Source: Auanema rhodensis
Lineage: Eukaryota; Animalia; Nematoda
Length of the DNA: 64,000 nt
Assembly: GCA_964057225.1 (NCBI GenBank)
Contig: OZ059900.1
Coordinates: 26,722,001-26,786,000, forward strand
Direction: 5' to 3'
The stretch's first letter is position 1. Each line of letters opens with the position of its first letter. Positions 1-59,819 of this stretch are shown here, in pieces. The position numbers and the translations under genes are program-made. The notes beneath the pieces are model-generated. The model saw only the letters and a list, made by a program, of their open reading frames with translations. It did not search any database and had not been told where the DNA came from.

Positions 1-323
1 TCTATGAATAAGTCTAAGCATGAGATTTATGACTAAGCATATGACTAAGTCTAAGCATGAGATCTATGACTAAGTCTAAGCATGAGATCTATGACTAAGT
101 CTAAGCATGAGATCTATGACTAAGTCTAAGCATGAGATTTATGACTAAGTCTAAGCATGAGATCTATGACTAAGTCTAAGCATGAGATCTATGACTAAGT
201 CTAAGCATGAGATCTATGACTAAGTCTAAGCATGAGATCTATGACTAAGTCTAAGCATGAGATCTATGACTAAGTCTAAGCATGAGATCTATGACTAAGT
301 TTAAGCATGAGATCTATGACTAA
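1..323 (-). repeat. 25-bp telomere-variant tandem repeat (G-strand GCTTAGACTTAGTCATAGATCTCAT), ~13 copies, runs off the window start
   Basis: Unit ATGAGATCTATGACTAAGTCTAAGC repeats with a 25-bp period; it contains two degenerate TTAGGC units and grades directly into canonical GCCTAA repeats. Confidence 0.95.
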
Positions 324-338
324 GCCTAAGCCTAAGCC
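320..338 (-). repeat. Short canonical nematode telomere tract (TTAGGC)x3
   Basis: CTAAGCCTAAGCCTAAGCC on the + strand. Confidence 0.9.
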
Positions 339-474
339 ATATGGAATAACTGAACCCATATGGAATAACTGAACCCATAGGAATAACTGAACCCATATTG
401 AATAACTGAACCCATATCGAATAACTGAACCCATATGGAATAACTGAACCCATATCGAATAACTGAACCCATAT
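338..474. repeat. 19-bp tandem repeat CATATGGAATAACTGAACC, 7 copies
   Basis: Units start at 338, 357, 376 (18 bp), 394, 413, 432 and 451. Confidence 0.95.
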
Positions 475-1729
475 TTTCGATATCACTATGCGAACATATG
501 TTAAATTGAGTAAAGGAAAGTATTGGATTTGTAGGGACAAAAATCTCGTACTGTCTGAGGAAACAGTTGTTTATCCTTCAAATTCAATTAGATTAGATTC
601 AATGATAATAGTAAAGGATACCTGTGTTTACAATTTAAAGCAGGAATCTGTTGTTGCCATTATTGTTAGGAAGCCGACAATTGTCAGATTAGGCTGGTTG
701 TTAGGAAATAGTTTAACAGAAATAGGAAAAACATTCAGCATGAAGTTGGATCTAACCTTTTTCTCACTTATGGAAGGAGGTTCTGCTTTTTACTACTTTG
801 GTGGTTTATGGTTTAAGTATGATAAAGATGATAGATTGCTCGGAGACCTTCCTTCAGAATGTAATTTAAAATTATTGGAGAATTTCGGACTCTCATCATT
901 CACAGGCATAGATTTAGGAATCGGGCCTGGCTCTTTATGGCATTATAACAAGAAAGAGTTCTTTGAAAGAGAAATGTCCAGATTCCCAAGTTTTGTTAAG
1001 ATATCTGAAGAAACCCAGAAATTGCTCAATTCAATACCAGACCAAATAATCAAAGTTGAAGATGAAAAGATAAAAGAGCTGTGAGATTTAATGAAAATAT
1101 TGAGTTTTGACCCACCATCTGATTTAAATATGGATATAACAAAACCTCCTGGTTTAGTGGATGATTGGAACAATGATGATTCACTAGACAGGAAGGAAAT
1201 GAAATCAATTGAAAGAACATTTACCAACATAGAGGTAGCAATTGCGAGAGTTGAAGTACCCATGACTGGAAGCTGTAAGTTTATTAGTAATGATGAAAGG
1301 CCACTATTTGAGGATTCTAATGATAAAATCGGGAAGTGGAGCTGTTCATTTTGCAAAGTGAATTTTAATAGAGGAAATTGCTGGGCATGCCATAAGAATC
1401 CATATGGAAAAAATCACTTTCCTGTCTTGCTTTTCACAGAAGAGCACAGAATTGAGCTTAAGACTGGCATTGCCATTAAGATGATTGGAGATAGCATAAC
1501 TTGGTTCAGTCATGACAATTGCCTGCTCATACAAGATTCACACTCAGTATCAGCACAGATTGATGGGAGAATTGTTGAGTTGAGTGAGGATTGGAGACAA
1601 ATAGTGAACATATCGTCTTGTGAATTGGAAAGAAGGATTATATTAATGGATAGGATAAATTGGAGAAAACACTTTGCGTTTTTGTTCAGAAGTGATGAGG
1701 GGGGGGGGATTTTTTTCATTTCAAATTAA
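473..1729 (+). pseudogene. Single ~410-codon intronless reading frame broken by one TGA (1082-1084); unknown protein with a C4 zinc-finger motif, possibly virus-derived
   Basis: ORFs 488-1084 and 1091-1729 are in the same frame (KIKEL*DLMKIL), and the frame stays open back to the 19-bp repeat. Motif WSCSFCKVNFNRGNCWAC has RanBP2-like spacing. GC is higher than the flanks. The frame ends in a G-run at ~1698-1708 that runs into a repeat. Confidence 0.55.
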
Positions 1730-2882
1730 AGAAAAAATATCTAAATTTACAATTGATACATATTATTCAAAAAGGTTTTTGAAATGCAAACAAAAATGCT
1801 TTCTAAATTTTCTTGTATTAATTATTATTATTCTAGTATTTTTTCCGTTAAACAGAATTTATTAACTATCTGACAATATTCGATCATGTTCTAATATCTG
1901 AAGTATATTAGAGTGAGATGATTAAACAATTCAGAAAAAAAATATATATATACAAAAACAGAACATTTAATAAGCAGTTTTTAGCATGAAAAAAATGTAT
2001 TAACCGAACAAATTTATATGCTTTATATATATATGTGTCTGTGTGTGGGTGTGTGGGTGTTCGTTTTATGACTCTATCATTTTTTTCTTTGCTATAAGCA
2101 TGATAGTTTTACGTTTATATGTTACATTTAATTTATTGTTTGTTGTAAATCTTATAATTTTGCCATAAGGCATATAAAAATTTGAGAAGAAAACCTAAAA
2201 TATAACAAACAATTATTGATGTTCATTATTATTTAATACTTATAGTAAACATATACTTTTTGTCGTCATAAATGTTGTTTTCAATAATGTAAAAGTCAGA
2301 AAAAAGATGAAGATATGATAGACACTTTAATTATTTACTCATAGATTCATGCATTGATATATTAACACAAATTAATATTTATATGATAGAAAAATGAGAA
2401 CATTAAAAAAAAAGAAGAAGAAAAATTATATACACAGATCATGGTATTTTTAATTTATTTCAGGTCATAAATTTTTTTTATCTTGTTTGGAAGAATAATA
2501 AATTATTTGTTTGCGAAAAAAAAAGAGTGATAAACATAGTATAGTCTCTAAACCATACATATTTTTTGCCATTAGGTGAATAACTGACTTATTATTAATA
2601 ATCTAATGAAAACTTTTTGAAAAATTATTACGCTGAGAGTGTAAATTTATCGATCTAGTTTAGAAAAAATTAAATTTTTAGTTGAGTTTAAACCAGGAAT
2701 GCTTGATTAGTTATTCCATCAATTTTGCATTTCTACATTTCAAATTAATGAAAAAATATCTAAATTTACAATTGATACATATTATTCAAAAAGGTTTTTG
2801 AAAAGCAAACAAAAATGCTTTCTAAATTTTCTTGTATTAATTATTATTATTCTAGTATTTTTTCCGTTAAACAGAATTTATT
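1717..2882 (+). repeat. Direct duplication of ~147 bp (1717-1863 and 2736-2882)
   Basis: CATTTCAAATTAA...CCGTTAAACAGAATTTATT occurs twice at a 1019-bp offset with about 2 mismatches. Confidence 0.9.
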
Positions 2883-2886
2883 TTTC

Positions 2887-3490: not shown

Positions 3491-3509
3491 TAAATTAAAT
3501 TTTCAATTT

Positions 3510-4060: not shown

Positions 4061-4131
4061 TGATACAGGCAATATACATATTAATTATGGATAAAACGGA
4101 TAAAACAAAATGGCACAGGTGGCTGATAGCA

Positions 4132-4388
4132 TTAAACAGATGAATTTAAGACCTCCATGTATTTAACTGGTGGAAGTTCACCTCTAACATCCATAGCTTC
4201 CATCTCTTTTGCGAAGATTCTATGTCGAATCGACATCGTAAAGGCCACTTGGTAATAAACTAAGTTTAGCCGGGATGCCCCATATTTATCAATTAAAGCA
4301 TTCTCTGGAAGAGAGAGGTTCATAGTCCACCTATCCTGGAGTCTTAACCTAGCCAAGTAAATGGAATCTCTAACCATCTTTTGGTCCT
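4132..4388 (-). pseudogene. 5'-truncated coding fragment (C-terminus of an unknown protein), cut at a telomere-like junction
   Basis: 81-aa ORF; the frame stays open upstream of the Met (QDQK-MVRDS) up to the GGCTTAGGCTTA junction at 4389. Confidence 0.4.
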
Positions 4389-4760
4389 GGCTTAGGCTTA
4401 ACTATCAAACTTTGGTTCAGGTATATCGAGCTTAGGCTTAATTATCGAACTCAGACTTAGGTATATCAAGCATAAAAAGCTTTTCCAAAATTAGGCTTTT
4501 TTCATCTTTGAGCTTATGCATATTCCGATTAAGGCTCATGCTTCGAGAAAGGCCTAGATTAAATCAGATTTATATTGATTTAGATTTTGTCATAAAGTTC
4601 TGGAAGAACAATCTGTACTTAATGTAATTTTCAATCTTCTTCAACAATCTACAATCTGTACTTAATGTAATTTTAATGTAATTGATGTACATCTCCAGCG
4701 AATCTCAAATAAATATCAAACTAGTTCTTGACTAAACAACAGAAGGTTTTCCCTTGACCA

Positions 4761-4960
4761 TGGAATGTTCTAGAATATTTTAGAATATTCAGGAATGTTC
4801 TAGAGTGTTCTAGAATGTTATGGAATGTTCTGGAATGTTTTAGAATATTCAGGAATGTTCTAGAATGTTCTAGAATGTTCTGGAATGTTCTAGAATGTTC
4901 TAGAATGTTTTAAAATAATCTGGAATATTTTAGAATATTCTCGAATGGAATAGAATGTTC
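4761..4960. promoter_or_regulatory. 10-bp tandem array (TAGAATGTTC) x20 forming contiguous heat-shock-element (nGAAnnTTCn) matches
   Basis: GAATGTTCTAGAATGTTC is a perfect alternating nGAAn array. Function is not shown. Confidence 0.6.
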
Positions 4961-5294
4961 CTTTTATTAATTTTGTAATAATATAGAACAATCAATAGTT
5001 ACATTATGTATTATGTAATTGCAGATTAGAAGAAAGTCTGAAGTAAATCAATAGTCACATGATGGATTTCGTAATTGTTAATCAAAAGTACATCTCAAGT
5101 AAATATCAAGTAAATCAATAGTCACATGATGGATTTCGTAATTGTTCATCAAAAGTACATCTCAAATAAATCTCAAGTAAATCTCAGACTAGATATCAAG
5201 TAAACAACAAGAGGTTTTCACTTGACCATGGAATATTCTCGAATGGAATAGAATGTTCCCTTTATTAATTTTGTAATAATATAGAACAATCAAT

Positions 5295-6280
5295 AGCTAC
5301 ATTATGTATTTTGTAATTGCAGATTAGAAGAAAGTTTGAAGTAAATCAATAGTCACATGATGGATTTCGTAATTGTTAATCAAAAGTACATCTCAAGTAA
5401 ATATCAAGTAAATCTCAAACTAGATATCATGTAAACAACAAGTAAGTCTCAAGTAAATCTCAAGTAAATCTCAAACTAGATATCATGTAAACAACAAGTA
5501 ACTCTCAAGTAAATCTCAAGTAAATCTCAAACTAGATCTCATGTAAACAACAAGTAAATCTCAAGTAAATCTCAAGTAAATCAATAGTCACATGATGGAT
5601 TTCGTAATTGTTAATCAATAGTACATCTCAAGTAAATATCAAGTAAATCTCGAACTAGCTCTCATGTAAACAACAAGTAAATCTCAAGTAAATCTCAAAC
5701 TAGATCTCATGTAAACAACAAGTAAATCTCAAGTAAATCTCAAGTAAATCAATAGTCACATGATGGATTTCGTAATTGTTAATCAATAGTACATCTCAAG
5801 TAAATCTCAAGTAAATCTCAAACTAGATATCATGTAAACAACAAGTAAATCTCAAGTAAATCTCAAGTTAATCTCAAACTAGATATCATGTAAACAACAA
5901 GTATATCTCAAGTAAATCTCAAACTAGATCTCATGTAAACAACAAGTAAATCTCAAGTAAATCTCAAACTAGATCTCATGTAAACAACAAGTAAATCTCA
6001 AGTAAATCTCAAACTAGATATCATGTAAACAACAAGTAAATCTCAAGTAAATCAATAGTCACATGATGGATTTTGTAATTGTTAATCAAAAGTACATCTC
6101 AAGTAAATATCAAGTAAATCTCAAACTAACTCTATTGTAAACAACAAGTAAATCTCAAGTAAATCTCAAGTAAATCAATAGTCACATGATGGATTTCGTA
6201 ATTGTTAATCAAAAGTACATCTCAAGTAAATATCAAGTAAATCTCAAACTAGATCTCATGTAAACAACAAGTAAATCTCA
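5295..6280 (+). repeat. Spacer of the foldback, built from 11-bp AAGTAAATCTC units and longer composite units
   Basis: Recurrent AAGTAAATCTC, CAAACTAGATCTCATGTAAACAAC and AATCAATAGTCACATGATGGATTTCGTAATTG blocks. Confidence 0.9.
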
Positions 6281-6614
6281 ATTGATTGTTCTATATTATT
6301 ACAAAATTAATAAAGGGAACATTCTATTCCATTCGAGAATATTCCATGGTCAAGTGAAAACCTCTTGTTGTTTACTTGATATCTAGTCTGAGATTTACTT
6401 GAGATTTATTTGAGATGTACTTTTGATGAACAATTACGAAATCCATCATGTGACTATTGATTTACTTGATATTTACTTGAGATGTACTTTTGATTAACAA
6501 TTACGAAATCCATCATGTGACTATTGATTTACTTCAGACTTTCTTCTAATCTGCAATTACATAATACATAATGTAACTATTGATTGTTCTATATTATTAC
6601 AAAATTAATAAAAG

Positions 6615-6814
6615 GAACATTCTATTCCATTCGAGAATATTCTAAAATATTCCAGATTATTTTAAAACATTCTAGAACATTCTAGAACATTCCAGAACAT
6701 TCTAGAACATTCTAGAACATTCCTGAATATTCTAAAACATTCCAGAACATTCCATAACATTCTAGAACACTCTAGAACATTCCTGAATATTCTAAAATAT
6801 TCTAGAACATTCCA
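6615..6814. promoter_or_regulatory. Second HSE-like array (mirror copy in the right arm)
   Basis: (GAACATTCTA)n, the reverse complement of 4761-4960. Confidence 0.6.
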
Positions 6815-7751
6815 TGGTCAAGGGAAAACCTTCTGTTGTTTAGTCAAGAACTAGTTTGATATTTATTTGAGATTCGCTGGAGATGTACATCAATTACATT
6901 AAAATTACATTAAGTACAGATTGTAGATTGTTGAAGAAGATTGAAAATTACATTAAGTACAGATTGTTCTTCCAGAACTTTATGACAAAATCTAAATCAA
7001 TATAAATCTGATTTAATCTAGGCCTTTCTCGAAGCATGAGCCTTAATCGGAATATGCATAAGCTCAAAGATGAAAAAAGCCTAATTTTGGAAAAGCTTTT
7101 TATGTTTGATATACCTAAGTCTGAGTTCGATAATTTAATATATGATAGTTAAGCCTAAGCTCGATTTACCTAAGCTAGAGTTTGATAGTTATGCCTTAAG
7201 CCAAATTTTGTTTCCATTTCAAGTGAAATTGTTTTCGAAGATTCTGGAACTTCTAGAACATTCGATAGTTTTTCAGAAAGTTCATAAACTTATTTTGATC
7301 CCGATAACTGGAACTTAAATATGCAGCAGAATCAGCAACATCAACTTCTCGCTTTCCTTTTATTTATTGCATTTTGTTTCATATTATTTTATATTATAGT
7401 AATGTAAATTACGTTTATAAATATTAAAAATTTTCTTCTTCTAGAACTTTCGATTGTTTTCCAGAAATTCATTTTTTTATTATTTCTCTTTACTGTTCCT
7501 TTATCCAAGCTTAAATCAATATTCGCGTAAGTTGCAATCGGGGGCTAAAACGGTGATGACTCAAGCGCCTTTGGCCATCCCACGGTTTCTGGGAAGATGT
7601 CGCCCAGGATAAGGCATGAATCATCCTCCTACAGCTTTAACCTTCCCACTCACAACATCTCGGGTATTCATAATCTGAACCCGCCCCCCCAAACATCTCT
7701 CTGCTTCTTTTTACCTCCTTCCGCTCCATAGTATCTTGCCTCCTCGGGTTA

Positions 7752-7760
7752 GTATATAAG
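7752..7760 (+). promoter_or_regulatory. Candidate TATA box GTATATAAG
   Basis: Matches the nematode GTATAWWAG consensus; it follows a locally GC-richer stretch and lies ~100 bp before the nucleoprotein-like frame. Confidence 0.3.
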
Positions 7761-7861
7761 CCGAGCCAATTTATCGTTTCTTCATGTGTTAAAGTATCAA
7801 CCAGTTGTGCTGCCTTCCTCCTATTCCTATCGTTCTTGTATTTTAATTTATCCTTGGCTGA

Positions 7862-8485
7862 ATAAACTTCAATGCCGAATCTTTGATTTCGGTCATAACA
7901 GAAAAATTGAATAAAGGAGGTAAGAAATCTGGGACGTTGTCAACAATAGCCGATGCCCTCAGTACTACTTCATACAGTAGGATGAAAACTACAATAGAGT
8001 ATGTCTGCGATAACCTCAAATCATCTGTACTAACCAACAAGCTTTATTTGATGGCCGTCATTCTGATTAGATTGTTATTCAAATCAGATTCTCATGTGTT
8101 GAAACAGCTGGGTTCAGAAAATCAGCAGCCCCTTTTACCAGGATTTCCAACGGTTGAACAACACAAGTTGTACCTCCTGAAAGAACAGCTCAAACCGCAC
8201 ACTCCTCTCCTCGGATATTTTCTGACTTTATGCGATGCTGCAGCGAAGTCATCTGACACGTCTGGTTTAAACAAGCCCCAAGCTGACTTTTTTGCTAGAT
8301 TTTTCAGAGTGAGGTGTGCCTACTACGGGACTACGGCAGTTTCTATTTTCATGTCCGTTAGAAGTGCGGAAATTTTCCGTTGTCCTGAGTTCAATCGTAG
8401 GCTTCTGTCTAAGATGACGAGGTCTAGCTTTCAAAAGGTTATGGTTGCCTTGAGGACGAATCAGAACAAAGATCATCCAATATAG
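7862..8485 (+). pseudogene. Endogenous viral element: rhabdovirus-like nucleoprotein internal fragment
   Basis: YLMAVILIRLLFKSDSHVLK and RCAYYGTTAVSIF...LLSKMTRSSFQKVMVALRT resemble the A-x-x-L-x-RL-x-x-KS and S-x-T-G-M-H-A-x-x-L-F blocks of plant-rhabdovirus/varicosavirus N (recalled, not searched). It is intronless, lacks an ATG at the frame start, and its 3' end is cut by the 42-bp array. Confidence 0.55.
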
Positions 8486-10114
8486 CTAAGCCTAAGCTCA
8501 AAGATCAATATCTAAGCCTTAATATAGCTAAGCCTAAGCTCAAAGATCAATATCTAAGCCTTAATATAGCTAAGCCTAAGCTCAAAGATCAATATCTAAG
8601 CCTCAATATAGCTAAGCCTAAGCTCAAAGATCAATATCTAAGCCTCAATATAGCTAAGCCTAAGCTCAAAGATCAATATCTAAGCCTCAATATAGCTAAG
8701 CCTAAGCTCAAAGATCAATATCTAAGCCTCAATATAGCTAAGCCTAAGCTCAAAGATCAATATCTAAGCCTCAATATAGCTAAGCCTAACCTCAAAGATC
8801 AATATCTAAGCCTTAATATAGCTAAGCCTAAGCTCAAAGATCAATATCTAAGCCTTAATATAGCTAAGCCTAAGCTCAAAGATCAATATCTAAGCCTCAA
8901 TATAGCTAAGCCTAAGCTCAAAGATCAATATCTAAGCCTCAATATAGCTAAGCCTAAGCTCAAAGATCAATATCTAAGCCTCAATATAGCTAAGCCTAAG
9001 CTCAAAGATCAATATCTAAGCCTCAATATAGCTAAGCCTAAGCTCAAAGATCAATATCTAAGCCTCAATATAGCTAAGCCTAAGCTCAAAGATCAATATC
9101 TAAGCCTCAATATAGCTAAGCCTAAGCTCAAAGATCAATATCTAAGCCTCAATATAGCTAAGCCTAAGCTCAAAGATCAATATCTAAGCCTCAATATAGC
9201 TAAGCCTAAGCTCAAAGATCAATATCTAAGCCTCAATATAGCTAAGCCTAAGCTCAAAGATCAATATCTAAGCCTCAATATAGCTAAGCCTAAGCTCAAA
9301 GATCAATATCTAAGCCTCAATATAGCTAAGCCTAAGCTCAAAGATCAATATCTAAGCCTCAATATAGCTAAGCCTAAGCTCAAAGATCAATATCTAAGCC
9401 TCAATATAGCTAAGCCTAAGCTCAAAGATCAATATCTAAGCCTCAATATAGCTAAGCCTAAGCTCAAAGATCAATATCTAAGCCTCAATATAGCTAAGCC
9501 TAAGCTCAAAGATCAATATCTAAGCCTCAATATAGCTAAGCCTAAGCTCAAAGATCAATATCTAAGCCTCAATATAGCTAAGCCTAAGCTCAAAGATCAA
9601 TATCTAAGCCTCAATATAGCTAAGCCTAAGCTCAAAGATCAATATCTAAGCCTCAATATAGCTAAGCCTAAGCTCAAAGATCAATATCTAAGCCTCAATA
9701 TAGCTAAGCCTAAGCTCAAAGATCAATATCTAAGCCTCAATATAGCTAAGCCTAAGCTCAAAGATCAATATCTAAGCCTCAATATAGCTAAGCCTAAGCT
9801 CAAAGATCAATATCTAAGCCTCAATATAGCTAAGCCTAAGCTCAAAGATCAATATCTAAGCCTCGATATAGCTAAGCCTAAGCTCAAAGATCAATATCTA
9901 AGCCTCAATATAGCTAAGCCTAAGCTCAAAGATCAATATCTAAGCCTCAATATAGCTAAGCCTAAGCTCAAAGATCAATATCTAAGCCTCAATATAGCTA
10001 AGCCTAAGCTCAAAGATCAATATCTAAGCCTCAATATAGCTAAGCCTAAGCTCAAAGATCAATATCTAAGCCTCAATATAGCTAAGCCTAAGCTCAAAGA
10101 TCAATATCTAAGCC
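8479..10114 (-). repeat. 42-bp telomere-variant tandem repeat, ~39 nearly identical copies
   Basis: Unit AATATAGCTAAGCCTAAGCTCAAAGATCAATATCTAAGCCTC; the G-strand contains GGCTTAG and GCTTAGGCTTAG. Confidence 0.97.
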
Positions 10115-10133
10115 CCGAATAAATTATATATAG

Positions 10134-12278: not shown

Positions 12279-12308
12279 TTAGTAAAAGCATTAGTAAAAG
12301 AAAAATTT

Positions 12309-12736
12309 TCAAATAAAATTCCCTAGATACTTTGTAAAGTTATCTTCCAGTTTTGACTTTTCTAATAGCTTCTCTTTGTATTCGAATTCGAAATCTCTCC
12401 CTGCGCAATATCTCAGTTTAGTATAGCTAGCAAGGGCTGCAAATTCAAAATAAGTTCATTCCATAATTATAACCTCACCTATCATTAGATCGCTCAACCC
12501 ATATGAACTGTTTCTGATATCCATTGAATGACCTTCGGCCGTTGCCTGGAGTTCGTTGTCTCGTTCTGATCGGTTTAATTCATGGAGCTTGTCGAAGCTG
12601 TCAACAGCTTTTATAGAGCTTTGTCTATAAGAAGATCATATTATTTGGAATAATGACTACTTACCTTATAGCTGCGAATCCTTCACTTATTGGCCACGGT
12701 ACGTCAAAGACTTCCTTTAAATCAGTTATAAGGCTT
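12309..12736 (-). pseudogene. Inverted 3' portion of the tyrosine recombinase gene
   Basis: 12672-12736 is an inverted copy of 12214-12278. It continues FAAIR|QSS (40-bp intron 12625-12664) to AEGHSMDIR. Removing one A from an A-run restores GHSMDIRNSSY (H+9=Y, canonical YR spacing) and an in-frame last exon ending at TGA 12309-12311. Confidence 0.78.
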
Positions 12737-12802
12737 AGGCTTAGGCTTAGGCTTAGGCTTAGGCTTAGGCTTAGGCTTAGGCTTAGGCTTAGGCTTAGGC
12801 TT
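12731..12802 (+). repeat. Interstitial telomere tract (AGGCTT)x12
   Basis: 72 bp of perfect TTAGGC repeat. Confidence 0.98.
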
Positions 12803-47100: not shown

Positions 47101-50100
47101 ATTTTTATTGATATTGGTTCATGGTAACCATGACTTTGAAATTTACGTGAACTTTAATTTATGCCAATTAAATGTACACGTGATGTGCACTTGGTATGTA
47201 ACTCGCTTCACGTGAAAGATAAAGAGATGCGGTTTTTGAAATTAGATTCCCCATGTCCATATTAGTCTAAAAACAAATTTTTATTGATATTGGTTCATGG
47301 TAACCATGTCTTTGAAATTTACGTGAACTTTAATTTATGCTAATTAAATGTACACGTGATGTGCACTTGGTATGTGACTCGCTTCACGTGAAAGATAAAG
47401 AGATGCGGTTCTCAAAATTAGATTCCCCAAGTCCATATTAGTCTAAAAACAAATTTTTATTGATATTGGTTCATGGTAACCATGTCTTTGAAGTTTACGT
47501 GAACTTTAATTTATGCTAATTAAATGTACACGTGATGTGCACTTGGTATGTAACTCGCTTCACGTGAAAGATAAAGAGATGCGGTTTTCAAAATTAGATT
47601 CCCCATGTCCATATTAGTCTAAAAACAAATTTTTATTGATATTGGTTCATGGTAACCATGTCTTTGAAGTTTACGTGAACTTTAATTTATGCTAATTAAA
47701 TGTACACGTGATGTGCACTTGGTATGTAACTCGCTTCACGTGAAAGATAAAGAGATGCGGTTTTCAAAATTAAATTCCCCATGTCCATATTAGTCTAAAA
47801 ACAAATTTTTATTGATATTGGTTCATGGTAACCATGTCTTTGAAATTTACGTGAACTTTAATTTATGCTAATTAAATGTACACGCGATGTGCACTTGGTA
47901 TGTAACTCGCTTCACGTGAAAGATAAAGAGATGCGGTTTTCAAAATTAGATTCCCCATGTCCATATTAGTCTAAAAACAAATTTTTATTGATATTGGTGC
48001 ATGGTAACCATGACTTTGAAATTTACGTGAACTTTAATTTATGCTAATTAAATGTACACGTGATGTACACTTGGTATGTAACTCGCTTCACGTGAAAGAT
48101 AAAGAGATGCGGTTTTCAAAATTAGATTCCCCATGTCCATATTAGTCTAAAAACAAATTTTTATTGATATTGGTGCATGGTAACCATGACTTTGAAATTT
48201 ACGTGAACTTTAATTTATGCTAATTAAATGTACACGTGATGTGCCCTTGGTATGTAACTCGCTTCACGTGAAAGATAAAGAGATGCGGTTTTCAAAATTA
48301 GATTCCCCATGTCCATATTAGTCTAAAAACAAATTTTTATTGATATTGGTGCATGGTAACCATGACTTTGAAATTTACGTGAACTTTAATTTATGCTAAT
48401 TAAATGTACACGTGATGTACACTTGGTATGTAACTCGCTTCACGTGAAAGATAAAGAGATGCGGTTTTCAAAATTAGATTCCCCATGTCCATATTAGTCT
48501 AAAAACAAATTTTTATTGATATTGGTTCATGGTAACCATGACTTTGAAATTTACGTGAACTTTAATTTATGTTAATTAAATGTACAAGTGATGTACACTT
48601 GGTATGTAACTCGCTTCACGTGAAAGATAAAAAGATGCGGTTTCCAAAATTAGATTCCCCATGTCCATATTAGTCTAAAAACAAATTTTTATTGATATTG
48701 GTTCATGGTAACCATGTCTTTGAAATTTACGTGAACTTTAATTTATGCTAATTAAATGTACACGTGATGTGCACTTGGTATGTAACTCGCTTCACGTGAA
48801 AGATAACGAGATGTGGTTTTCAAAATTAGATTCCCCATGTCCATATTAGTCTAAAAACAAATTTTTATTGATATTGGTTCATGGTAACCATGTCTTTGAA
48901 ATTTACGTGAACTTTAATTTATGCTAATTAAATGTACACGTGATGTGCACTTGGTATGTAACTCGCTTCACGTGTAAGATAAAGAGATGCGGTTTTCAAA
49001 ATTAGATTCATCATGTCCATATTAGTCTAAAAACAAATTTTTATTGATATTGGTGCATGGTAACCATGACTTTGAAATTTACGTGAACTTTAATTTATGC
49101 TAATTAAAAGTACACGTGATGTGCCCTTGGTATGTAACTCGCTTCACGTGAAAGATAAAGAGATGCGGTTTTCAAACTTAGATTCCCCATGTCCATATTA
49201 GTCTAAAAACAAATTTTTATTGATATTGGTTCATGGTAACCATGACTTTGAAATTTACGTGAACTTTAATTTATGCTAATTAAATGTACACGTGATGTGC
49301 CCTTGGTATGTAACTCGCTTCACGTGAAAGATAAAGAGATGCGGTTCTCAAAATTAGATTCCCCAAGTCCATATTAGTCTAAAAACAAATTTTTATTGAT
49401 ATTGGTTCATGGTAACCATGTCTTTGAAGTTTACGTGAACTTTAATTTATGCTAATTAAATGTACACGTGATGTGCACTTGGTATGTAACTCGCTTCACG
49501 TGAAAGATAAAGAGATGCGGTTTTCAAAATTAGATTCCCCATGTCCATATTAGTCTAAAAACAAATTTTTATTGATATTGGTGCATGGTAACCATGACTT
49601 TGAAATTTACGTGAACTTTAATTTATGCTAATTAAATGTAGACGTGATGTGCACTTGGTATGTAACTCGCTTCACGTGAAAGATAAAGAGATGCGGTTTT
49701 CAAAATTAGATTCCCCATGTCCATATTAGTCTAAAAACAAATTTTTTTGATATTGGTTCATGGTAACCATGTCTTTGAAATTTACGTGAACTTTAATTTA
49801 TGCTAATTAAATGTACACGTGATGTGCACTTGGTATGTAACTCGCTTCACGTGAAAGATAAAGAGATGCGGTTTTCAAAATTAGATTCCCCATGTCCATA
49901 TTAGTCTAAAAACAAATTTTTATTGATATTGGTTCATGGTAACCATGACTTTGAAATTTACGTGAACTTTAATTTATGCTAATTAAATGTACACGTGATG
50001 TGCCCTTGGTATGTAACTCGCTTCACGTGAAAGATAAAGAGATGCGGTTTTCAAACTTAGATTCCCCATGTCCATATTAGTCTAAAAACAAATTTTTATT

Positions 50101-53100
50101 GATATTGGTTCATGGTAACCATGACTTTGAAATTTACGTGAACTTTAATTTATGCTAATTAAATGTACACGTGATGTGCCCTTGGTATGTAACTCGCTTC
50201 ACGTGAAAGATAAAGAGATGCGGTTCTCAAAATTAGATTCCCCAAGTCCATATTAGTCTAAAAACAAATTTTTATTGATATTGGTTCATGGTAACCATGT
50301 CTTTGAAGTTTACGTGAACTTTAATTTATGCTAATTAAATGTACACGTGATGTGCACTTGGTATGTAACTCGCTTCACGTGAAAGATAAAGAGATGCGGT
50401 TTTCAAAATTAGATTCCCCATGTCCATATTAGTCTAAAAACAAATTTTTATTGATATTGGTGCATGGTAACCATGACTTTGAAATTTACGTGAACTTTAA
50501 TTTATGCTAATTAAATGTACACGTGATGTGCACTTGGTATGTAACTCGCTTCACGTGAAAGATAAAGAGATGCGGTTTTCAAAATTAGATTCCCCATGTC
50601 CATATTAGTCTAAAAACAAATTTTTTTGATATTGGTTCATGGTAACCATGTCTTTGAAATTTACGTGAACTTTAATTTATGCTAATTAAATGTACACGTG
50701 ATGTGCACTTGGTATGTAACTCGCTTCACGTGAAAGATAAAGAGATGCGGTTTTCAAAATTAGATTCCCCATGTCCATATTAGTCTAAAAACAAATTTTT
50801 ATTGATATTGGTTCATGGTAACCATGACTTTGAAATTTACGTGAACTTTAATTTATGCTAATTAAATGTACACGTGATGTGCACTTGGTATGTAACTCGC
50901 TTCACGTGAAAGATAAAGAGATGTGGTTTTTAAAATTAGATTCCCCATGTTCATATTAGTCTAAAAACAAATTTTTATTGATATTGGTTCATGGTAACCA
51001 TGACTTTGAAATTTACGTGAACTTTAATTTATGCCAATTAAATGTACACGTGATGTGCACTTGGTATGTAACTCGCTTCACGTGAAAGATAAAGAGATGC
51101 GGTTTTCAAAATTAGATTCCCCATGTCCATATTAGTCTAAAAACAAATTTTTTTGATATTGGTGCATGGTAACCATGACTTTGAAATTTACGTGAACTTT
51201 AATTTATGCTAATTAAATGTACACGTGATGTGCACTTGGTATGTAACTCGCTTCACGTGAAAGATAAAGAGATGCGGTTTTCAAAATTAGATTCCCCATG
51301 TCCATATTAGTCTAAAAACAAATTTTTATTGATATTGGTTCATGGTAACCATGACTTTGAAATTTACGTGAACTTTAATTTATGCTAATTAAATGTACAC
51401 GTGATGTGCACTTGGTATGTAACTCGCTTCACGTGAAAGATAAAGAGATGCGGTTTTCAAAATTAGATTCCCCATGTCCATATTAGTCTAAAAACAAATT
51501 TTTTTGATATTGGTTCATGGTAACCATGTCTTTGAAATTTACGTGAACTTTAATTTATGCTAATTAAATGTACACGTGATGTGCACTTGGTATGTAACTC
51601 GCTTCACGTGAAAGATAAAGAGATGCGGTTTTCAAAATTAGATTCCCCATGTCCATATTAGTCTAAAAACAAATTTTTATTGATATTGGTTCATGGTAAC
51701 CATGACTTTGAAATTTACGTGAACTTTAATTTATGCTAATTAAATGTACACGTGATGTGCACTTGGTATGTAACTCGCTTCACGTGAAAGATAAAGAGAT
51801 GTGGTTTTTAAAATTAGATTCCCCATGTTCATATTAGTCTAAAAACAAATTTTTATTGATATTGGTTCATGGTAACCATGACTTTGAAATTTACGTGAAC
51901 TTTAATTTATGCTAATTAAATGTACACGTGATGTGCACTTGGTATGTAACTCGCTTCACGTGAAAGATAAAGAGATGCGGTTTTCAAAATTAGATTCCCC
52001 ATGTCCATATTAGTCTAAAAACAAATTTTTTTGATATTGGTGCATGGTAACCATGACTTTGAAATTTACGTGAACTTTAATTTATGCTAATTAAATGTAC
52101 ACGTGATGTGCACTTGGTATGTAACTCGCTTCACGTGAAAGATAAAGAGATGCGGTTTTCAAAATTAGATTCCCCATGTCCATATTAGTCTAAAAACAAA
52201 TTTTTATTGATATTGGTTCATGGTAACCATGACTTTGAAATTTACGTGAACTTTAATTTATGCTAATTAAATGTACACGTGATGTGCACTTGGTATGTAA
52301 CTCGCTTCACGTGAAAGATAAAGAGATGTGGTTTTTAAAATTAGATTCCCCATGTTCATATTAGTCTAAAAACAAATTTTTATTGATATTGGTTCATGGT
52401 AACCATGACTTTGAAATTTACGTGAACTTTAATTTATGCCAATTAAATGTACACGTGATGTGCACTTGGTATGTAACTCGCTTCACGTGAAAGATAAAGA
52501 GATGCGGTTTTTGAAATTAGATTCCCCATGTCCATATTAGTCTAAAAACAAATTTTTATTGATATTGGTTCATGGTAACCATGTCTTTGAAATTTACGTG
52601 AACTTTAATTTATGCTAATTAAATGTACACGTGATGTGCACTTGGTATGTGACTCGCTTCACGTGAAAGATAAAGAGATGCGGTTTTCAAAATTAGATTC
52701 CCCATGTCCATATTAGTCTAAAAACAAATTTTTATTGATATTGGTGCATGGTAACCATGACTTTGAAATTTACGTGAACTTTAATTTATGCTAATTAAAT
52801 GTACACGTGATGTGCACTTGGTATGTAACTCGCTTCACGTGAAAGATAAAGAGATGCGGTTTTCAAAATTAGATTCCCCATGTCCATATTAGTCTAAAAA
52901 AAAAAATTTTTATTGATATTGGTTCATGGTAACCATGACTTTGAAATTTACGTGAACTTTAATTTATGTTAATTAAATGTACAAGTGATGTACACTTGGT
53001 ATGTAACTCGCTTCACGTGAAAGATAAAAAGATGCGGTTTCCAAAATTAGATTCCCCATGTCCATATTAGTCTAAAAACAAATTTTTATTGATATTGGTT

Positions 53101-56100
53101 CATGGTAACCATGTCTTTGAAATTTACGTGAACTTTAATTTATGCTAATTAAATGTACACGTGATGTGCACTTGGTATGTAACTCGCTTCACGTGAAAGA
53201 TAACGAGATGTGGTTTTCAAAATTAGATTCCCCATGTCCATATTAGTCTAAAAACAAATTTTTATTGATATTGGTTCATGGTAACCATGTCTTTGAAATT
53301 TACGTGAACTTTAATTTATGCTAATTAAATGTACACGTGATGTGCACTTGGTATGTAACTCGCTTCACGTGTAAGATAAAGAGATGCGGTTTTCAAAATT
53401 AGATTCATCATGTCCATATTAGTCTAAAAACAAATTTTTATTGATATTGGTGCATGGTAACCATGACTTTGAAATTTACGTGAACTTTAATTTATGCTAA
53501 TTAAATGTACACGTGATGTGCACTTGGTATGTAACTCGCTTCACGTGAAAGATAAGGAGATGTGGTTTTTAAAATTAGATTCCCCATGTCCATATTAGTC
53601 TAAAAACAAATTTTTATTGATATTGGTTCATGGTAACCATGTCTTTGAAATTTACGTGAACTTTAATTTATGCTAATTAAATGTACACGCGATGTGCACT
53701 TGGTATGTAACTCGCTTCACGTGAAAGATAAAGAGATGCGGTTTTCAAAATTAGATTCCCCATGTCCATATTAGTCTAAAAACAAATTTTTATTGATATT
53801 GGTGCATGGTAACCATGACTTTGAAATTTACGTGAACTTTAATTTATGCTAATTAAATGTACACGTGATGTACACTTGGTATGTAACTCGCTTCACGTGA
53901 AAGATAAAGAGATGCGGTTTTCAAAATTAGATTCCCCATGTCCATATTAGTCTAAAAACAAATTTTTATTGATATTGGTTCATGGTAACCATGACTTTGA
54001 AATTTACGTGAACTTTAATTTATGTTAATTAAATGTACAAGTGATGTACACTTGGTATGTAACTCGCTTCACGTGAAAGATAAAAAGATGCGGTTTCCAA
54101 AATTAGATTCCCCATGTCCATATTAGTCTAAAAACAAATTTTTATTGATATTGGTTCATGGTAACCATGTCTTTGAAATTTACGTGAACTTTAATTTATG
54201 CTAATTAAATGTACACGTGATGTGCACTTGGTATGTAACTCGCTTCACGTGAAAGATAACGAGATGTGGTTTTCAAAATTAGATTCCCCATGTCCATATT
54301 AGTCTAAAAACAAATTTTTATTGATATTGGTTCATGGTAACCATGTCTTTGAAATTTACGTGAACTTTAATTTATGCTAATTAAATGTACACGTGATGTG
54401 CACTTGGTATGTAACTCGCTTCACGTGTAAGATAAAGAGATGCGGTTTTCAAAATTAGATTCATCATGTCCATATTAGTCTAAAAACAAATTTTTATTGA
54501 TATTGGTGCATGGTAACCATGACTTTGAAATTTACGTGAACTTTAATTTATGCTAATTAAATGTACACGTGATGTACACTTGGTATGTAACTCGCTTCAC
54601 GTGAAAGATAAAGAGATGCGGTTTTCAAAATTAGATTCCCCATGTCCATATTAGTCTAAAAACAAATTTTTATTGATATTGGTTCATGGTAACCATGACT
54701 TTGAAATTTACGTGAACTTTAATTTATGTTAATTAAATGTACAAGTGATGTACACTTGGTATGTAACTCGCTTCACGTGAAAGATAAAAAGATGCGGTTT
54801 CCAAAATTAGATTCCCCATGTCCATATTAGTCTAAAAACAAATTTTTATTGATATTGGTTCATGGTAACCATGTCTTTGAAATTTACGTGAACTTTAATT
54901 TATGCTAATTAAATGTACACGTGATGTGCACTTGGTATGTAACTCGCTTCACGTGAAAGATAACGAGATGTGGTTTTCAAAATTAGATTCCCCATGTCCA
55001 TATTAGTCTAAAAACAAATTTTTATTGATATTGGTTCATGGTAACCATGTCTTTGAAATTTACGTGAACTTTAATTTATGCTAATTAAATGTACACGTGA
55101 TGTGCACTTGGTATGTAACTCGCTTCACGTGTAAGATAAAGAGATGCGGTTTTCAAAATTAGATTCATCATGTCCATATTAGTCTAAAAACAAATTTTTA
55201 TTGATATTGGTGCATGGTAACCATGACTTTGAAATTTACGTGAACTTTAATTTATGCTAATTAAATGTACACGTGATGTGCCCTTGGTATGTAACTCGCT
55301 TCACGTGAAAGATAAAGAGATGCGGTTTTCAAACTTAGATTCCCCATGTCCATATTAGTCTAAAAACAAATTTTTATTGATATTGGTTCATGGTAACCAT
55401 GACTTTGAAATTTACGTGAACTTTAATTTATGCTAATTAAATGTACACGTGATGTGCACTTGGTATGTAACTCGCTTCACGTGAAAGATAAAGAGATGCG
55501 GTTCTCAAAATTAGATTCCCCAAGTCCATATTAGTCTAAAAACAAATTTTTATTGATATTGGTTCATGGTAACCATGTCTTTGAAGTTTACGTGAACTTT
55601 AATTTATGCTAATTAAATGTACACGTGATGTGCACTTGGTATGTAACTCGCTTCACGTGAAAGATAAAGAGATGCGGTTTTCAAAATTAGATTCCCCATG
55701 TCCATATTAGTCTAAAAACAAATTTTTATTGATATTGGTGCATGGTAACCATGACTTTGAAATTTACGTGAACTTTAATTTATGCTAATTAAATGTACAC
55801 GTGATGTGCACTTGGTATGTAACTCGCTTCACGTGAAAGATAAAGAGATGCGGTTTTCAAAATTAGATTCCCCATGTCCATATTAGTCTAAAAACAAATT
55901 TTTTTGATATTGGTTCATGGTAACCATGTCTTTGAAATTTACGTGAACTTTAATTTATGCTAATTAAATGTACACGTGATGTGTACTTGGTATGTAACTC
56001 GCTTCACGTGAAAGATAACGAGATGTGGTTTTCAAAATTAGATTCCCCATGTCCATATTAGTCTAAAAACAAATTTTTATTGATATTGGTTCATGGTAAC

Positions 56101-57784
56101 CATGTCTTTGAAATTTACGTGAACTTTAATTTATGCTAATTAAATGTACACGTGATGTGCACTTGGTATGTAACTCGCTTCACGTGTAAGATAAAGAGAT
56201 GCGGTTTTCAAAATTAGATTCATCATGTCCATATTAGTCTAAAAACAAATTTTTATTGATATTGGTGCATGGTAACCATGACTTTGAAATTTACGTGAAC
56301 TTTAATTTATGCTAATTAAATGTACACGTGATGTGCCCTTGGTATGTAACTCGCTTCACGTGAAAGATAAAGAGATGCGGTTTTCAAACTTAGATTCCCC
56401 ATGTCCATATTAGTCTAAAAACAAATTTTTATTGATATTGGTTCATGGTAACCATGACTTTGAAATTTACGTGAACTTTAATTTATGCTAATTAAATGTA
56501 CACGTGATGTGCACTTGGTATGTAACTCGCTTCACGTGAAAGATAAAGAGATGCGGTTCTCAAAATTAGATTCCCCAAGTCCATATTAGTCTAAAAACAA
56601 ATTTTTATTGATATTGGTTCATGGTAACCATGTCTTTGAAGTTTACGTGAACTTTAATTTATGCTAATTAAATGTACACGTGATGTGCACTTGGTATGTA
56701 ACTCGCTTCACGTGAAAGATAAAGAGATGCGGTTTTCAAAATTAGATTCCCCATGTCCATATTAGTCTAAAAACAAATTTTTATTGATATTGGTGCATGG
56801 TAACCATGACTTTGAAATTTACGTGAACTTTAATTTATGCTAATTAAATGTACACGTGATGTGCACTTGGTATGTAACTCGCTTCACGTGAAAGATAAAG
56901 AGATGCGGTTTTCAAAATTAGATTCCCCATGTCCATATTAGTCTAAAAACAAATTTTTTTGATATTGGTTCATGGTAACCATGTCTTTGAAATTTACGTG
57001 AACTTTAATTTATGCTAATTAAATGTACACGTGATGTGTACTTGGTATGTAACTCGCTTCACGTGAAAGATAAAGAGATGCGGTTTTCAAAATTAGATTC
57101 CCCATGTCCATATTAGTCTAAAAACAAATTTTTATTGATATTGGTTCATGGTAACCATCACTTTGAAATTTACGTGAACTTTAATTTATGCTAATTAAAC
57201 GTACACGTGATGTGCACTTGGTATGTAACTCGCTTCACGTGAAAGATAAAGAGATGTGGTTTTTAAAATTAGATTCCCCATGTTCATATTAGTCTAAAAA
57301 CAAATTTTTATTGATATTGGTTCATGGTAACCATGACTTTGAAATTTACGTGAACTTTAATTTATGCCAATTAAATGTACACGTGATGTGCACTTGGTAT
57401 GTAACTCGCTTCACGTGAAAGATAAAGAGATGCGGTTTTTGAAATTAGATTCCAAATGTCCATATTAGTCTAAAAACAAATTTTTATTGATATTGGTTCA
57501 TGGTAACCATGTCTTTGAAATTTACGTGAACTTTAATTTATGCTAATTAAATGTACACGTGATGTGCACTTGGTATGTAACTCGCTTCACGTGAAAGATA
57601 AAGAGATGCGGTTTTCAAAATTAGATTCCCCATGTCCATATTAGTCTAAAAACAAATTTTTATTGATATTGGTGCATGGTAACCATGACTTTGAAATTTA
57701 CGTGAACTTTAATTTATGCTAATTAAATGTACACGTGATGTACACTTGGTATGTAACTCGCTTCACGTGAAAGATAAAGAGATG
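17197..57784. repeat. 176-bp satellite DNA array, ~230 monomers, very homogeneous
   Basis: TTTGAAATTT recurs at 17225, 17401, 17577 and onward (period 176); monomer CATGGTAACCATGACTTTGAAATTTACGTGAAC...TTGATATTGGTT. Confidence 0.99.
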
Positions 57785-58674
57785 AATGGAAATGTGCATA
57801 TTGGTGCTGGAATCGCTACGCATGCCTATGTTGTTCCCGAAAACTTGAAATATGTGAATTACTCGTGAGTTGTTTTTCATTTATGCTGATGTATTATATG
57901 TGCTTTTCAGTACTGCTGTGAAAGGTTTTGTACAATTTGGAGAACTGAAGTTAAGAATTTCGGATCTTGCCGGACCTCTTCTGAATGCTGTCAATCTTGC
58001 TACTGTTGCGACTGCCAGTTATGCTGCAACTCCTGCTGATGTCACACTTGTTTTTGGATGTGCCCTATCTACTGGATTAAGTTCTTGGAATGAAAATGGA
58101 CCGATACGCGAGATGAATGCCGAGGAACTCAAGAGTTTGGAGAAATACTTCCGTGTAGCTGATGGGGAGAAGATCTTTGATGAAGTTGTGCACACCTTCC
58201 TCGTGCCTGCGGGTTTTTCACCTGCAATGTATGCTGAATCAGTGAAAGTGATGATCGCGGGAAAGCTACAGTGGTGGACCACGGGACATCACTTAGGATC
58301 TGTACGGACTGAAAAAGCTGGGGACGAAACGAGAAGAACCGGATATTTATGGAAAGTGCTGAGAGAGTCAACATCATGGACCGATATTTCATCTTCAACG
58401 AATCTGATCCTTCTTCATGCAGCGCTCCATTTCTGTGACACGAGGAAAGTAATGAAAACCATAACCGGATCTGAGAAAATTAGGATTCAATTCGACCAAA
58501 TTGTTCCTATAACTACTGGAGGAGACGTAAGGATTAGGATTGCTCCATACGGTGCCGGAGCGAAAAGATGGGTGAATTCTTATAAGTCATGCACTGCAAT
58601 GAAAGCATCCCCAGTCATCTACTTTCTTGATCGGATCTTACAAAATGACATTGTTGACGTCCTCAATTATGGGC
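57782..58674 (+). pseudogene. Endogenous viral element: qinvirus-like nucleoprotein fragment with one 46-bp intron (57865-57910)
   Basis: KLQWWTTGHHLG, ALHFCDTRKVM and DVRIRIAPYGAGAKR match the order of the K-x-N-W-W-x-x-N-H-H-x-G, H-W-x-S-T and D-x-x-L-R-x-x-x-x-P-A-G-T motifs I recall for Qinviridae N. GTGAGT...TTTTCAG splices exon 57782-57864 in frame (YVNYS|TAVKGF). It is bounded by the satellite at the 5' end and by TTAGGC at the 3' end. Confidence 0.68.
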
Positions 58675-58800
58675 TTAGGCTTAGGCTTAGGCTTAGGCTT
58701 AGGCTTAGGCTTAGGCTTAGGCTTAGGCTTAGGCTTAGGCTTAGGCTTAGGCTTAGGCTTAGGCTTAGGCTTAGGCTTAGGCTTAGGCTTAGGCTTAGGC
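58672..58800 (+). repeat. Interstitial telomere tract GGC(TTAGGC)x21
   Basis: Perfect repeat directly fused to the coding frame (...LNYG|LRLRLR). Confidence 0.98.
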
Positions 58801-59780
58801 AAGCGTGATTCAGAAACATGGTGGGGGCTCGCCGCCCCCACACCCCCGCTTGCTTCTGGCTCAGATACTATTACGACAATTTAGTGTTCACATGGTTACA
58901 CGGTATGGCCACAATGTGTATATCATCTTAAGTGTGGTACGAGTATCACAATTCATTCATTTCAGGAATCGTATGCTATAATTAAGATTGGGGGCTAGCC
59001 GCCCCCACACCCCCGCTTTCTTCTGCTTCAAATACTATAAAGTCAATTTACTGTTCACATGCTTACGCGGTATGGCTATAATGTATATATCATCTTAAGA
59101 GTGGTATGATTATCAGAATGTTATACATCAAAACTCGTATGGCCACAATGTATATATCATCTTAAGAGTGGTATGATTATCAGAATGTTGTACATCAAAA
59201 CTCGTATGGCCACAATGTATATATCATCTTAAGTGTGGTATGATTATCAGAATGTTGTACATCAAAACTCGTTTGGCCACAATGTATATATCATCTTATC
59301 CCAAAAACAAAGCTTCTTCAGCGGTATCCATGCGGATTTTATAAAAAATCTCGCTGCGTTGCCCTAAATTGTACAGGAGAAACATACAAAGCATGACGGA
59401 CGCTTCTCGGAGCATAATTTTTTTTTCCTGAAAATAAAACTTCAAGATTAAGAAAAAAATAGCATTACGTCTTCAGAGCTTGTTTCTTCATAGGTCGAAA
59501 GAAAATTCTGGAGACGAGGATGGGCAAAACATCGGAATTTCCTATAAAGCATATAAAACGTAGGGAGCGTGGTAGCCATTTTCGATAAAGTTTTTTCTTT
59601 ATTCAGGCCCTCAAAGTTGAAGAATTTTGATAACTAGTGCTTGGTGAATTACCGGTTCAACAATTTTCCTTATTCTTTTAATGACTTTAGTCGACCTATG
59701 AAGAAACAAGCTATGAAAACGTAATGCTATTTTTTTCTTAATCTTGAAGTTTTATTTTCATGTTTTTCTGAATCACGCTT
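58801..59780. mobile_element. ~1-kb non-coding element with terminal inverted repeats, sitting between convergent telomere tracts
   Basis: AAGCGTGATTCAGAAA at 58801-58816 and its perfect reverse complement at 59765-59780. Inside are two GGGGGCT(C/A)GCCGCCCCC hairpin blocks (~58823, ~58990), ~66-68-bp tandem units (~59070-59299) and a nested ~70-bp inverted repeat (59429-59498 / 59691-59760). Confidence 0.7.
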
Positions 59781-59819
59781 GCCTAAGCCTAAGCCTAAGC
59801 CTAAGCCTAAGCCTAAGCC
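59781..59819 (-). repeat. Interstitial telomere tract (TTAGGC)x6 on the minus strand
   Basis: (GCCTAA)6GCC on the + strand. Confidence 0.98.

What the first reader, a model, noticed from the sequence alone, without database searches (positions are those of the whole stretch)
320..59819. Window is a chain of fragments, each capped at GGCTTA in telomere polarity: possible telomere-healing-and-fusion archive
Seen: seven junctions enter telomeric or telomere-variant DNA at GGCTTA with the G-rich strand running away from the adjacent piece. They are 338(-, after the 19-bp array), 4389(+), 7202(-), 10114(-), 12732(+), 58672(+) and 59819(-). Pieces 339-4388 and 10115-12730 are capped at both ends like linear mini-chromosomes. 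Most caps cut straight through genes. The captured material is enriched in virus-like and transposon genes. Established: nematode telomerase heals breaks using short homology, including during programmed DNA elimination, and C. elegans can cap ends with telomere-flanked TALT templates. Inference: broken or eliminated DNA was capped with TTAGGC, variant arrays or long templates, then concatenated into a heterochromatic and possibly germline-limited or small-RNA-producing locus.
Basis: partly seen in the sequence, partly recalled or inferred. Interest (0 to 1): 0.9.

Follow-up and report, generated by a model that had tools for sequence, protein, structure and literature searches.

The report
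Telomere-healing scars in discarded nematode DNA
In DNA that a nematode (very likely Auanema rhodense) likely keeps only in its germline, seven short telomere tracts all start in the same sequence register; they are likely scars where broken pieces, one from an RNA virus, were capped by telomerase and then stitched together.

Summary
The seven junctions exist as stated and are all the telomere-like tracts in the window. Six enter at GGCTTA and one at AGGCTT (P about 0.001, or 0.02 counting paired caps once). The 40.6-kb satellite matches the FISH probe for AT-1, an autosome-terminal repeat eliminated from the soma of Auanema rhodense, in 142 places. Two cut sites have uncut copies in the window, and both carry the priming bases (AGGCTT, GG). 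One capped piece is a truncated qinvirus nucleocapsid gene with a likely intron.

Corrections: the polarity claim is true by construction, so doubly capped 'mini-chromosomes' are not in excess. Junctions 4389 and 7202 are two ends of one palindrome. Only two caps clearly cut genes, and only one piece is shown to be viral. The flanks do not match the Oscheius elimination motif (P=0.12), so these are probably not recycled somatic fragments.

Best reading: germline breaks primed by telomerase at GG(C), extended by template copying from telomere-flanked or variant repeats, then fused, in DNA the soma discards. This resembles C. elegans TALT/BIR subtelomere patchworks. The GGC register and the telomere-capped viral insert are the new elements.

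The parts
1..338 (-). 25-bp telomere-variant array, ending in 19 nt of perfect repeat (320-338); cap 1
   Evidence: related variant arrays occur at high depth in public contigs
339..474 (.). 19-bp minisatellite (7.3 copies); uncut units carry GG where the cap starts
467..1729 (+). Unclassified intronless ORF region with one in-frame stop (205 + 214 aa); one contig at base depth
2875..3875 (.). Diverged multi-copy host repeat pieces, including a 112-bp inverted-repeat pair
4132..4388 (-). Unclassified open frame (84 aa) running up to cap 2
4389..7202 (.). Palindrome C: arms 4389-5294 and 6281-7202, tips of ~40-bp telomere-variant repeats starting GGCTTA (caps 2 and 3), tandem-repeat centre
   Evidence: junction 4389 bridged in 2 of 4 runs
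7203..8477 (+). Piece D with an unclassified ORF from 7862, cut at its 3' end by the far end of the 42-bp array
8478..10114 (-). 42-bp telomere-variant array (39 copies, 99% alike), entered at GGCTTAG; cap 4
10115..12731 (+). Piece F: degraded gene, apparently intron-containing, with a weak SET match (E 0.12) and an acidic stretch; ends in a fold-back copy (12669-12736 inverts 12214-12281)
12732..12802 (+). Perfect TTAGGC tract, 71 nt; cap 5; the uncut copy shares AGGCTT at the cut
13223..13957 (+). ORF with an HExxH motif, weak SprT-like match (E 0.056, below cut-off)
14062..17199 (.). 167/334-bp repeat blocks in palindromic arrangement (related block at about 60640-64000)
17209..57784 (.). 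176-bp satellite array matching AT-1, the autosome-terminal germline-restricted repeat of A. rhodense
   Evidence: 142 exact probe matches, 0 in 100 shuffles
57785..58671 (+). Qinvirus nucleocapsid-derived piece J, truncated at both ends, with a likely 46-nt GT..TTTTCAG intron at 57865-57910
58672..58800 (+). Perfect TTAGGC tract, 129 nt; cap 6
58801..59780 (.). Linker K, entered from both tracts through the same 16-20 nt; right end built from inverted copies of 59429-59498 and of its own left end
59781..59819 (-). Perfect TTAGGC tract, 39 nt; cap 7
59820..60650 (-). Piece L: intronless GC-rich (51%) open frame of about 276 aa running into cap 7; unclassified

Best explanation
The window is satellite-rich DNA carrying the AT-1 repeat that Auanema rhodense removes from its soma, and its seven telomere tracts are likely scars of germline break repair in which telomerase primed on a GG(C) at each broken end. 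Steps: (1) Linear ends arose in host DNA and in reverse-transcribed RNA-virus DNA (viral origin of piece J shown; how the breaks arose inferred). (2) Repeats were added in the GGC register using 2-6 nt of homology (register and two homologies shown; telomerase as the enzyme inferred from Oscheius and Caenorhabditis data). (3) The short telomere seed invaded telomere-flanked or variant-repeat templates and copied them with template switches (copied and inverted segments shown; break-induced replication inferred). (4) The extended ends were joined to each other or to satellite, internalising the caps (inferred). (5) The patchwork persists because somatic cells discard this DNA, so selection against it is weak (inferred; no function is required).
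For: AT-1 probe: 142 exact matches. Shared register: 6 of 7 GGCTTA plus 1 AGGCTT, P 0.0011, or 0.022 for five events. The same register is used by rhabditid telomere addition: more than 98% at GGC in O. tipulae, GG in two Caenorhabditis species. C. elegans subtelomere junctions begin TTA/CTT and Ascaris has no preference. Both internal uncut copies carry the priming bases: AGGCTT at 12732 (GGCTT begins 0.05% of unique positions) and GG at 338 (2 of 19 positions per unit). Template switching: the fold-back before 12732, the inverted copies at K's right end, C arms identical apart from the outer 98 columns. Minisatellite and AT-rich host DNA are capped in the same way as coding pieces, and both sense and antisense strands run into caps. 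J is qinvirus-derived (profile E 1.1e-18 among 658 segments; 28% identity to the Xinzhou nematode virus 3 protein). Precedent for periodic germline telomere arrays and TALT/BIR patchworks.
Against: No direct evidence for telomerase. Only about five events are independent, and only 2 of 7 had an uncut copy to test; the GG match is weak (about 1 in 10 by chance). Perfect repeats also occur inside other copies of the 25-bp array (table 5c), so short perfect runs may be copied, not newly made. In Ascaris embryos, X-ray breaks were not telomere-healed. Other telomere joints shown as loose ends in public contigs are not all in the GGC register (about 5 of the 11 I could read among the 24 of 55 rows shown; placements ambiguous). 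No record bridged a whole tract, so the order of pieces across tracts is unverified.
Confidence: 0.55

Rival explanations
1. No telomerase step: broken ends invaded existing telomeric or variant arrays directly by microhomology-mediated break-induced replication (ALT-like).
For: Four of seven caps are variant arrays or templates with only 6-19 nt of perfect repeat; template switches are evident; periodic ALT-like germline telomeres are reported in C. auriculariae.
Against: Homology-driven invasion has no reason to favour the GGC phase; in AT-rich DNA the simulated commonest entry is TTAGGC (0.21) and the rarest GGCTTA (0.13).
Confidence: 0.17
2. Reverse transcription primed from a nick in the C-rich telomere strand at a fixed position (a telomere-targeting retroelement acting in trans) copied viral and host RNAs next to telomere repeats.
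For: A fixed nick would give a fixed register; J and L read in sense into the G-rich strand; J must have passed through RNA.
Against: No poly-A at any cap; other caps abut antisense strands, a minisatellite and a fold-back copy; no reverse transcriptase was recognised in the ORFs scanned.
Confidence: 0.1
3. The pieces are fragments cut and capped during somatic programmed elimination that re-entered the germline.
For: The GGC register is that of elimination sites; both sides of such breaks are capped in O. tipulae; the 4389 flank matches a half-site at 6 of 10.
Against: Mean half-site match 4.0 of 10 against 3.3 for 149 background GGC sites, P=0.12; the best of 4 intact cores in the window matches 11 of 29. 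Elimination occurs in somatic blastomeres. The A. rhodense matrix itself was not available.
Confidence: 0.06
4. C and K (with their tracts) are transposons with telomere-like terminal inverted repeats inserted into genes.
For: Both are bounded by inverted GGCTTA-starting ends.
Against: The two flanks are unrelated (J versus L; GC 0.38 versus 0.26 around C). No target duplication beyond the GC that any two opposite caps share. C's arm lies at about twice base depth, a rough hint that no dispersed family exists. No empty site among the 24 of 78 loose-end rows shown. It does not explain 338, 10114 or 12732.
Confidence: 0.06
5. The chain is an assembly chimera joined through telomeric repeats.
Against: 4389 bridged with 0 differences in 2 runs; the L/167-bp joint is covered in 4 of 4 runs from 3 studies; the tel2/K joint in 2 studies. 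The microhomology and fold-backs are not typical assembler products.
Confidence: 0.06

Closest known systems
C. elegans TALT / BIR subtelomere patchworks (Kim 2019 PMC6581047; Kim 2021 PMC8034613)
   Same: Short internalised telomere tracts followed by copied templates, inversions and multiple template switches near chromosome ends.
   Different: No tandem same-orientation template copies here; templates are entered head-on from both sides; fixed GGC entry; lies in soma-eliminated DNA; includes viral sequence.
Neotelomere addition during programmed DNA elimination in Oscheius tipulae and Auanema rhodense (SFE sites)
   Same: Telomere repeats begin at GGC; very likely the same organism and eliminated compartment.
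   Different: Caps are heritable and internal, and the flanks lack the O. tipulae motif.
Germline-restricted AT-1 repeat blocks of A. rhodense (bioRxiv 10.64898/2026.08.27.747507)
   Same: The 176-bp array matches the AT-1 probe; eliminated DNA is reported as repeat- and transposon-rich.
   Different: The main text has 0 hits for 'interstitial' or 'virus', and 'viral' only in reference titles; supplements were not seen.
Qinviridae nucleocapsid (Xinzhou nematode virus 3, Shahe qinvirus-like virus 1, Wuhan insect virus 15)
   Same: Shared core motifs over about 150 profile positions.
   Different: Truncated genomic copy with a likely spliceosomal intron, ending in telomere repeats; introns are reported for related nematode yue-like viruses, not for qinviruses in the passages seen.
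Interstitial telomeric sequences of C. elegans (PMC6800518)
   Same: Short perfect and degenerate internal tracts; telomerase action at breaks is a proposed origin.
   Different: There they are mostly intronic and depleted from exons; here they join unrelated pieces and share one register.

Membership tests
SFE-directed elimination break (Oscheius/Auanema) | Telomere repeats primed at GGC | tested here: met
   7 of 7 compatible
SFE-directed elimination break (Oscheius/Auanema) | Flank matches the 29-bp motif half-site | tested here: not met
   O. tipulae consensus: mean 4.0 vs 3.3 of 10, P=0.12
SFE-directed elimination break (Oscheius/Auanema) | Flank matches the A. rhodense motif matrix | not testable with these tools
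   motif given only in a figure and closed supplement
A. rhodense germline-restricted terminal DNA | Contains the AT-1 repeat | tested here: met
   142 exact probe matches
A. rhodense germline-restricted terminal DNA | Read depth lower than somatic single-copy DNA | not testable with these tools
   only contigs, no somatic baseline
TALT (template for ALT) | Unique sequence flanked by telomeric or variant repeats | tested here: met
   K and C, but flanks are inverted, not co-oriented
TALT (template for ALT) | Tandem copies at several chromosome ends | tested here: inconclusive
   no tandem copies in the window; K roughly 2-3 times base depth; no genome held
Terminal-inverted-repeat transposon with telomere-like ends | Terminal inverted repeats | tested here: met
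Terminal-inverted-repeat transposon with telomere-like ends | Target-site duplication with continuous flanks | tested here: not met
   flanks unrelated
Terminal-inverted-repeat transposon with telomere-like ends | Dispersed copies or empty sites | tested here: inconclusive
   C arm about twice base depth; 24 of 78 loose-end rows seen
Qinvirus-derived endogenous viral element (piece J) | Homology to qinvirus nucleocapsid | tested here: met
   the profile included P0002, which was found with J, but the pairwise match to the named nematode virus does not depend on it
Qinvirus-derived endogenous viral element (piece J) | Present in host DNA | tested here: met
Telomere-targeting retroelement insertion | Poly-A or element 3' end at the junction, reverse transcriptase in cis | tested here: not met
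Small-RNA-producing cluster | Small RNAs map to the locus | not testable with these tools
   no RNA holder listed, which is no evidence either way

The most novel reading that the evidence does not exclude
In nematodes with programmed DNA elimination, telomerase caps free linear DNA in the germline, including reverse-transcribed RNA-virus genomes, and the new telomere acts as a recombination handle that drags the piece into soma-discarded repeat blocks. This would be a telomere-mediated route of virus endogenisation that builds a germline-only store of viral sequence, possibly feeding small-RNA defence.
Probability: 0.25. Interest if true: 0.8.

Novelty: new variant of a known kind. Interest (0 to 1): 0.5.

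Why it matters
It offers a heritable record of germline telomere healing in a species where healing has been described only at somatic elimination sites. It gives a simple genome-wide test (entry register of internal tracts) of whether the elimination-type priming rule also acts on unprogrammed breaks. If more capped pieces prove viral, it points to a new way RNA-virus sequence enters animal germlines and helps explain what accumulates in eliminated DNA.

Tried and rejected
No whole genome is held, so the genome-wide register survey was impossible.

Identity searches that found nothing for pieces B, D, F, H and L: Pfam (only sub-threshold SprT-like and SET), NCBIfam, PDB sequences, word-based protein search for D (22) and for J (13), viral contigs, prokaryote genomes, E. 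coli, phages. Atlas hits for J and L were under 0.8. Folds of D and of P0002 were low confidence (pLDDT 44 and 36) and their fold searches meaningless. P0001 is a repetitive subtilase-type protein, rejected as spurious. The metagenome scan, PDB search with alignment A1 and homologue search with P0002 (56) gave no further relatives; the viral scan with P0002 (57) reported one relative but returned no locus.

My impressions that D resembles a negative-strand virus nucleoprotein, L a toti-like capsid and F a tyrosine-recombinase element are recalled and came from no call.

The idea that C inserted into one gene was rejected (flank GC 0.38 vs 0.26). Rfam: 0 matches. No RNA holder listed. Contig depths are used only as rough hints. 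Earlier findings: none. Parts without contig cover prove nothing.
Full report
OBSERVATION. All seven coordinates carry GGCTTA on the stated strand. A scan for telomere-like sequence on both strands found seven clusters and no others, so the set was not cherry-picked. Perfect runs are 19, 12, 6, 7, 71, 129 and 39 nt; six enter at GGCTTA and the one at 12732 at AGGCTT. With random phase and AT-rich flanks, six or more of seven share a phase in 0.11% of simulations. Two pairs are not independent: 4389 and 7202 are the tips of one palindrome, and 58672 and 59819 lead into the same short template. Counting five events gives 2.2%. The register is therefore real but rests on few events. The polarity statement carries no information, because each internal tract has one side where the G strand runs away; the six inter-tract pieces are two outward-outward, two inward-inward and two mixed.

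ORGANISM AND COMPARTMENT. No genome is held. The 176-bp array (17209-57784) contains the published FISH probe for AT-1 exactly in 142 places, against none in 100 shuffles. [quoted passage not shown] The paper's smallest repeat unit is 167 nt, and 167-bp blocks flank the array here. No intact motif of the O. tipulae type lies in the window (best of four cores 11 of 29). I infer that the whole window is germline-restricted A. rhodense DNA; depth against a somatic baseline could not be measured.

ARE THE JOINS REAL. Nine runs guessed as DNA, from three studies, hold 57785-60655 or part of it. Four were laid on two stretches. Junction 4389 is bridged without differences in two runs of one study, possibly the source. 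59819 and the tel2/K joint are reached with 27-29 telomeric bases, under the tool's 31-base bar, and the joint between L and the 167-bp block is covered in all four runs. No record spans a whole tract, as expected for such contigs.

PRIMING TEST. Two cuts have an uncut copy in the window. Bases 12669-12736 are an inverted copy of 12214-12281; the uncut copy continues through AGGCTT and then leaves the repeat, a six-base homology (GGCTT starts 0.05% of unique positions). At 338 the cap replaces the end of a 19-bp unit whose other copies read GG at that position (2 of 19 positions). Telomere addition starts at GGC in over 98% of cases in O. tipulae and after GG in two Caenorhabditis species, whereas C. 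elegans junctions begin TTA or CTT and Ascaris shows no preference. The flanks, however, do not resemble the O. tipulae motif (consensus from the supplement): mean 4.0 of 10 against 3.3 for 149 background GGC sites, P=0.12. Against easy healing of unprogrammed breaks, X-ray breaks in Ascaris embryos were not capped, and other telomere joints seen as loose ends were not all in the GGC phase.

TEMPLATES AND FUSIONS. Four caps continue into variant repeats (25, about 40, about 40 and 42 bp). C's arms differ only in their outer 98 columns and lie at about twice base depth, suggesting one arm was copied from the other after a switch from a related variant repeat. K's right end is built from an inverted copy of 59429-59498 followed by an inverted copy of its own left end and tract. 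The far end of the 42-bp array meets D near a shared CAAAGATCA. These are the kinds of structure reported for C. elegans TALT and break-induced replication, and periodic germline telomere arrays are reported in C. auriculariae. The flanks of C and of K are unrelated, which argues against transposon insertion.

CARGO. Piece J matched an unnamed 452-aa protein (E 6.4e-4 among 1.84 billion). A motif scan from that protein returned three viral contigs whose proteins are named as Xinzhou nematode virus 3, Shahe qinvirus-like virus 1 nucleocapsid and Wuhan insect virus 15. J matches the first at 28% over 117 residues (pairwise E 4e-11), and a profile of the four finds J at E 1.1e-18 among 658 segments. 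The next, weak hit (E 1.4) is the frame just upstream and matches the profile's N-terminus across a 46-nt GT..TTTTCAG stretch, which supports a real intron; related nematode yue-like viruses carry such introns. The ORFs in B, D, F, H and L remain unclassified (see Tried and rejected). L is 51% GC and had no match in E. coli, phage or prokaryote collections. Virus enrichment is thus shown for one piece only.

VERDICT. The most likely history is germline break, telomerase priming at GG(C), template copying from telomere-bearing repeats, and end joining, tolerated because the soma discards the region. The paper itself proposes weak surveillance as the reason repeats accumulate there. It works like a TALT/BIR patchwork with an elimination-type priming register; it is not shown to be a member of either class. 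Searches for a prior description (and keywords in the A. rhodense paper) listed none by title or abstract start, but the library is incomplete.

PAPERS SEEN. 10.64898/2026.08.27.747507: abstract, Results parts 1-2 of 3, Discussion, Methods part 1 of 2, FISH section, keyword passages; its figures and supplements (repeat table, motif) were not seen and may bear on the motif test and on novelty. PMC13060919: abstract, Results part 1 of 2, passages, supplement passages. PMC13370393: abstract, sections 4 and 10, passages. PMC8034613: abstract and section 27. Passages only: 10.1101/2022.08.19.504554, PMC12770441, PMC9071541, PMC6581047, PMC10980081, PMC8022731, PMC6800518.

Noticed in passing
window 57865-57910: Likely spliceosomal intron inside a qinvirus nucleocapsid-derived sequence; introns are reported for nematode yue-like viruses, so this may record an intron-bearing qinvirus or later host domestication.
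   Followed up: partly
O. tipulae motif consensus: The elimination motif reads like a degenerate head-to-head fusion of two telomere tracts around GGCTTAGCC; such motifs could have arisen from telomere fusions. The 42-bp variant unit resembles its left half by eye.
   Followed up: no
window 12195-12218 (minus strand): Beyond the GGCTT used for priming, the uncut copy continues with a telomere-variant-like stretch similar to the tips of C and to the 25-bp unit; possibly an older degenerate cap.
   Followed up: no
window 1-338 and public contigs: Relatives of the 25-bp variant array with embedded perfect repeats occur at high depth in two runs; they may be a major germline telomere-associated repeat.
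   Followed up: no
window 1711-1863 and 2730-2882: 153-bp direct repeat (97%) inside piece B, showing B is itself a composite.
   Followed up: no
window 14438-17199 and 60640-64000: 167/334-bp repeat element present as a palindrome on one side of AT-1 and as ~2.3-kb tandem copies on the other; possibly the second autosome-terminal repeat (AT-2).
   Followed up: no
window 13223-13957: Intact-looking 244-aa intronless ORF with an HExxH motif and a weak SprT-like match.
   Followed up: partly
window 707-746: A long unrelated contig shares a short stretch here in three runs and lies at several times the depth of piece B; a weak hint that B is under-represented relative to other DNA.
   Followed up: no
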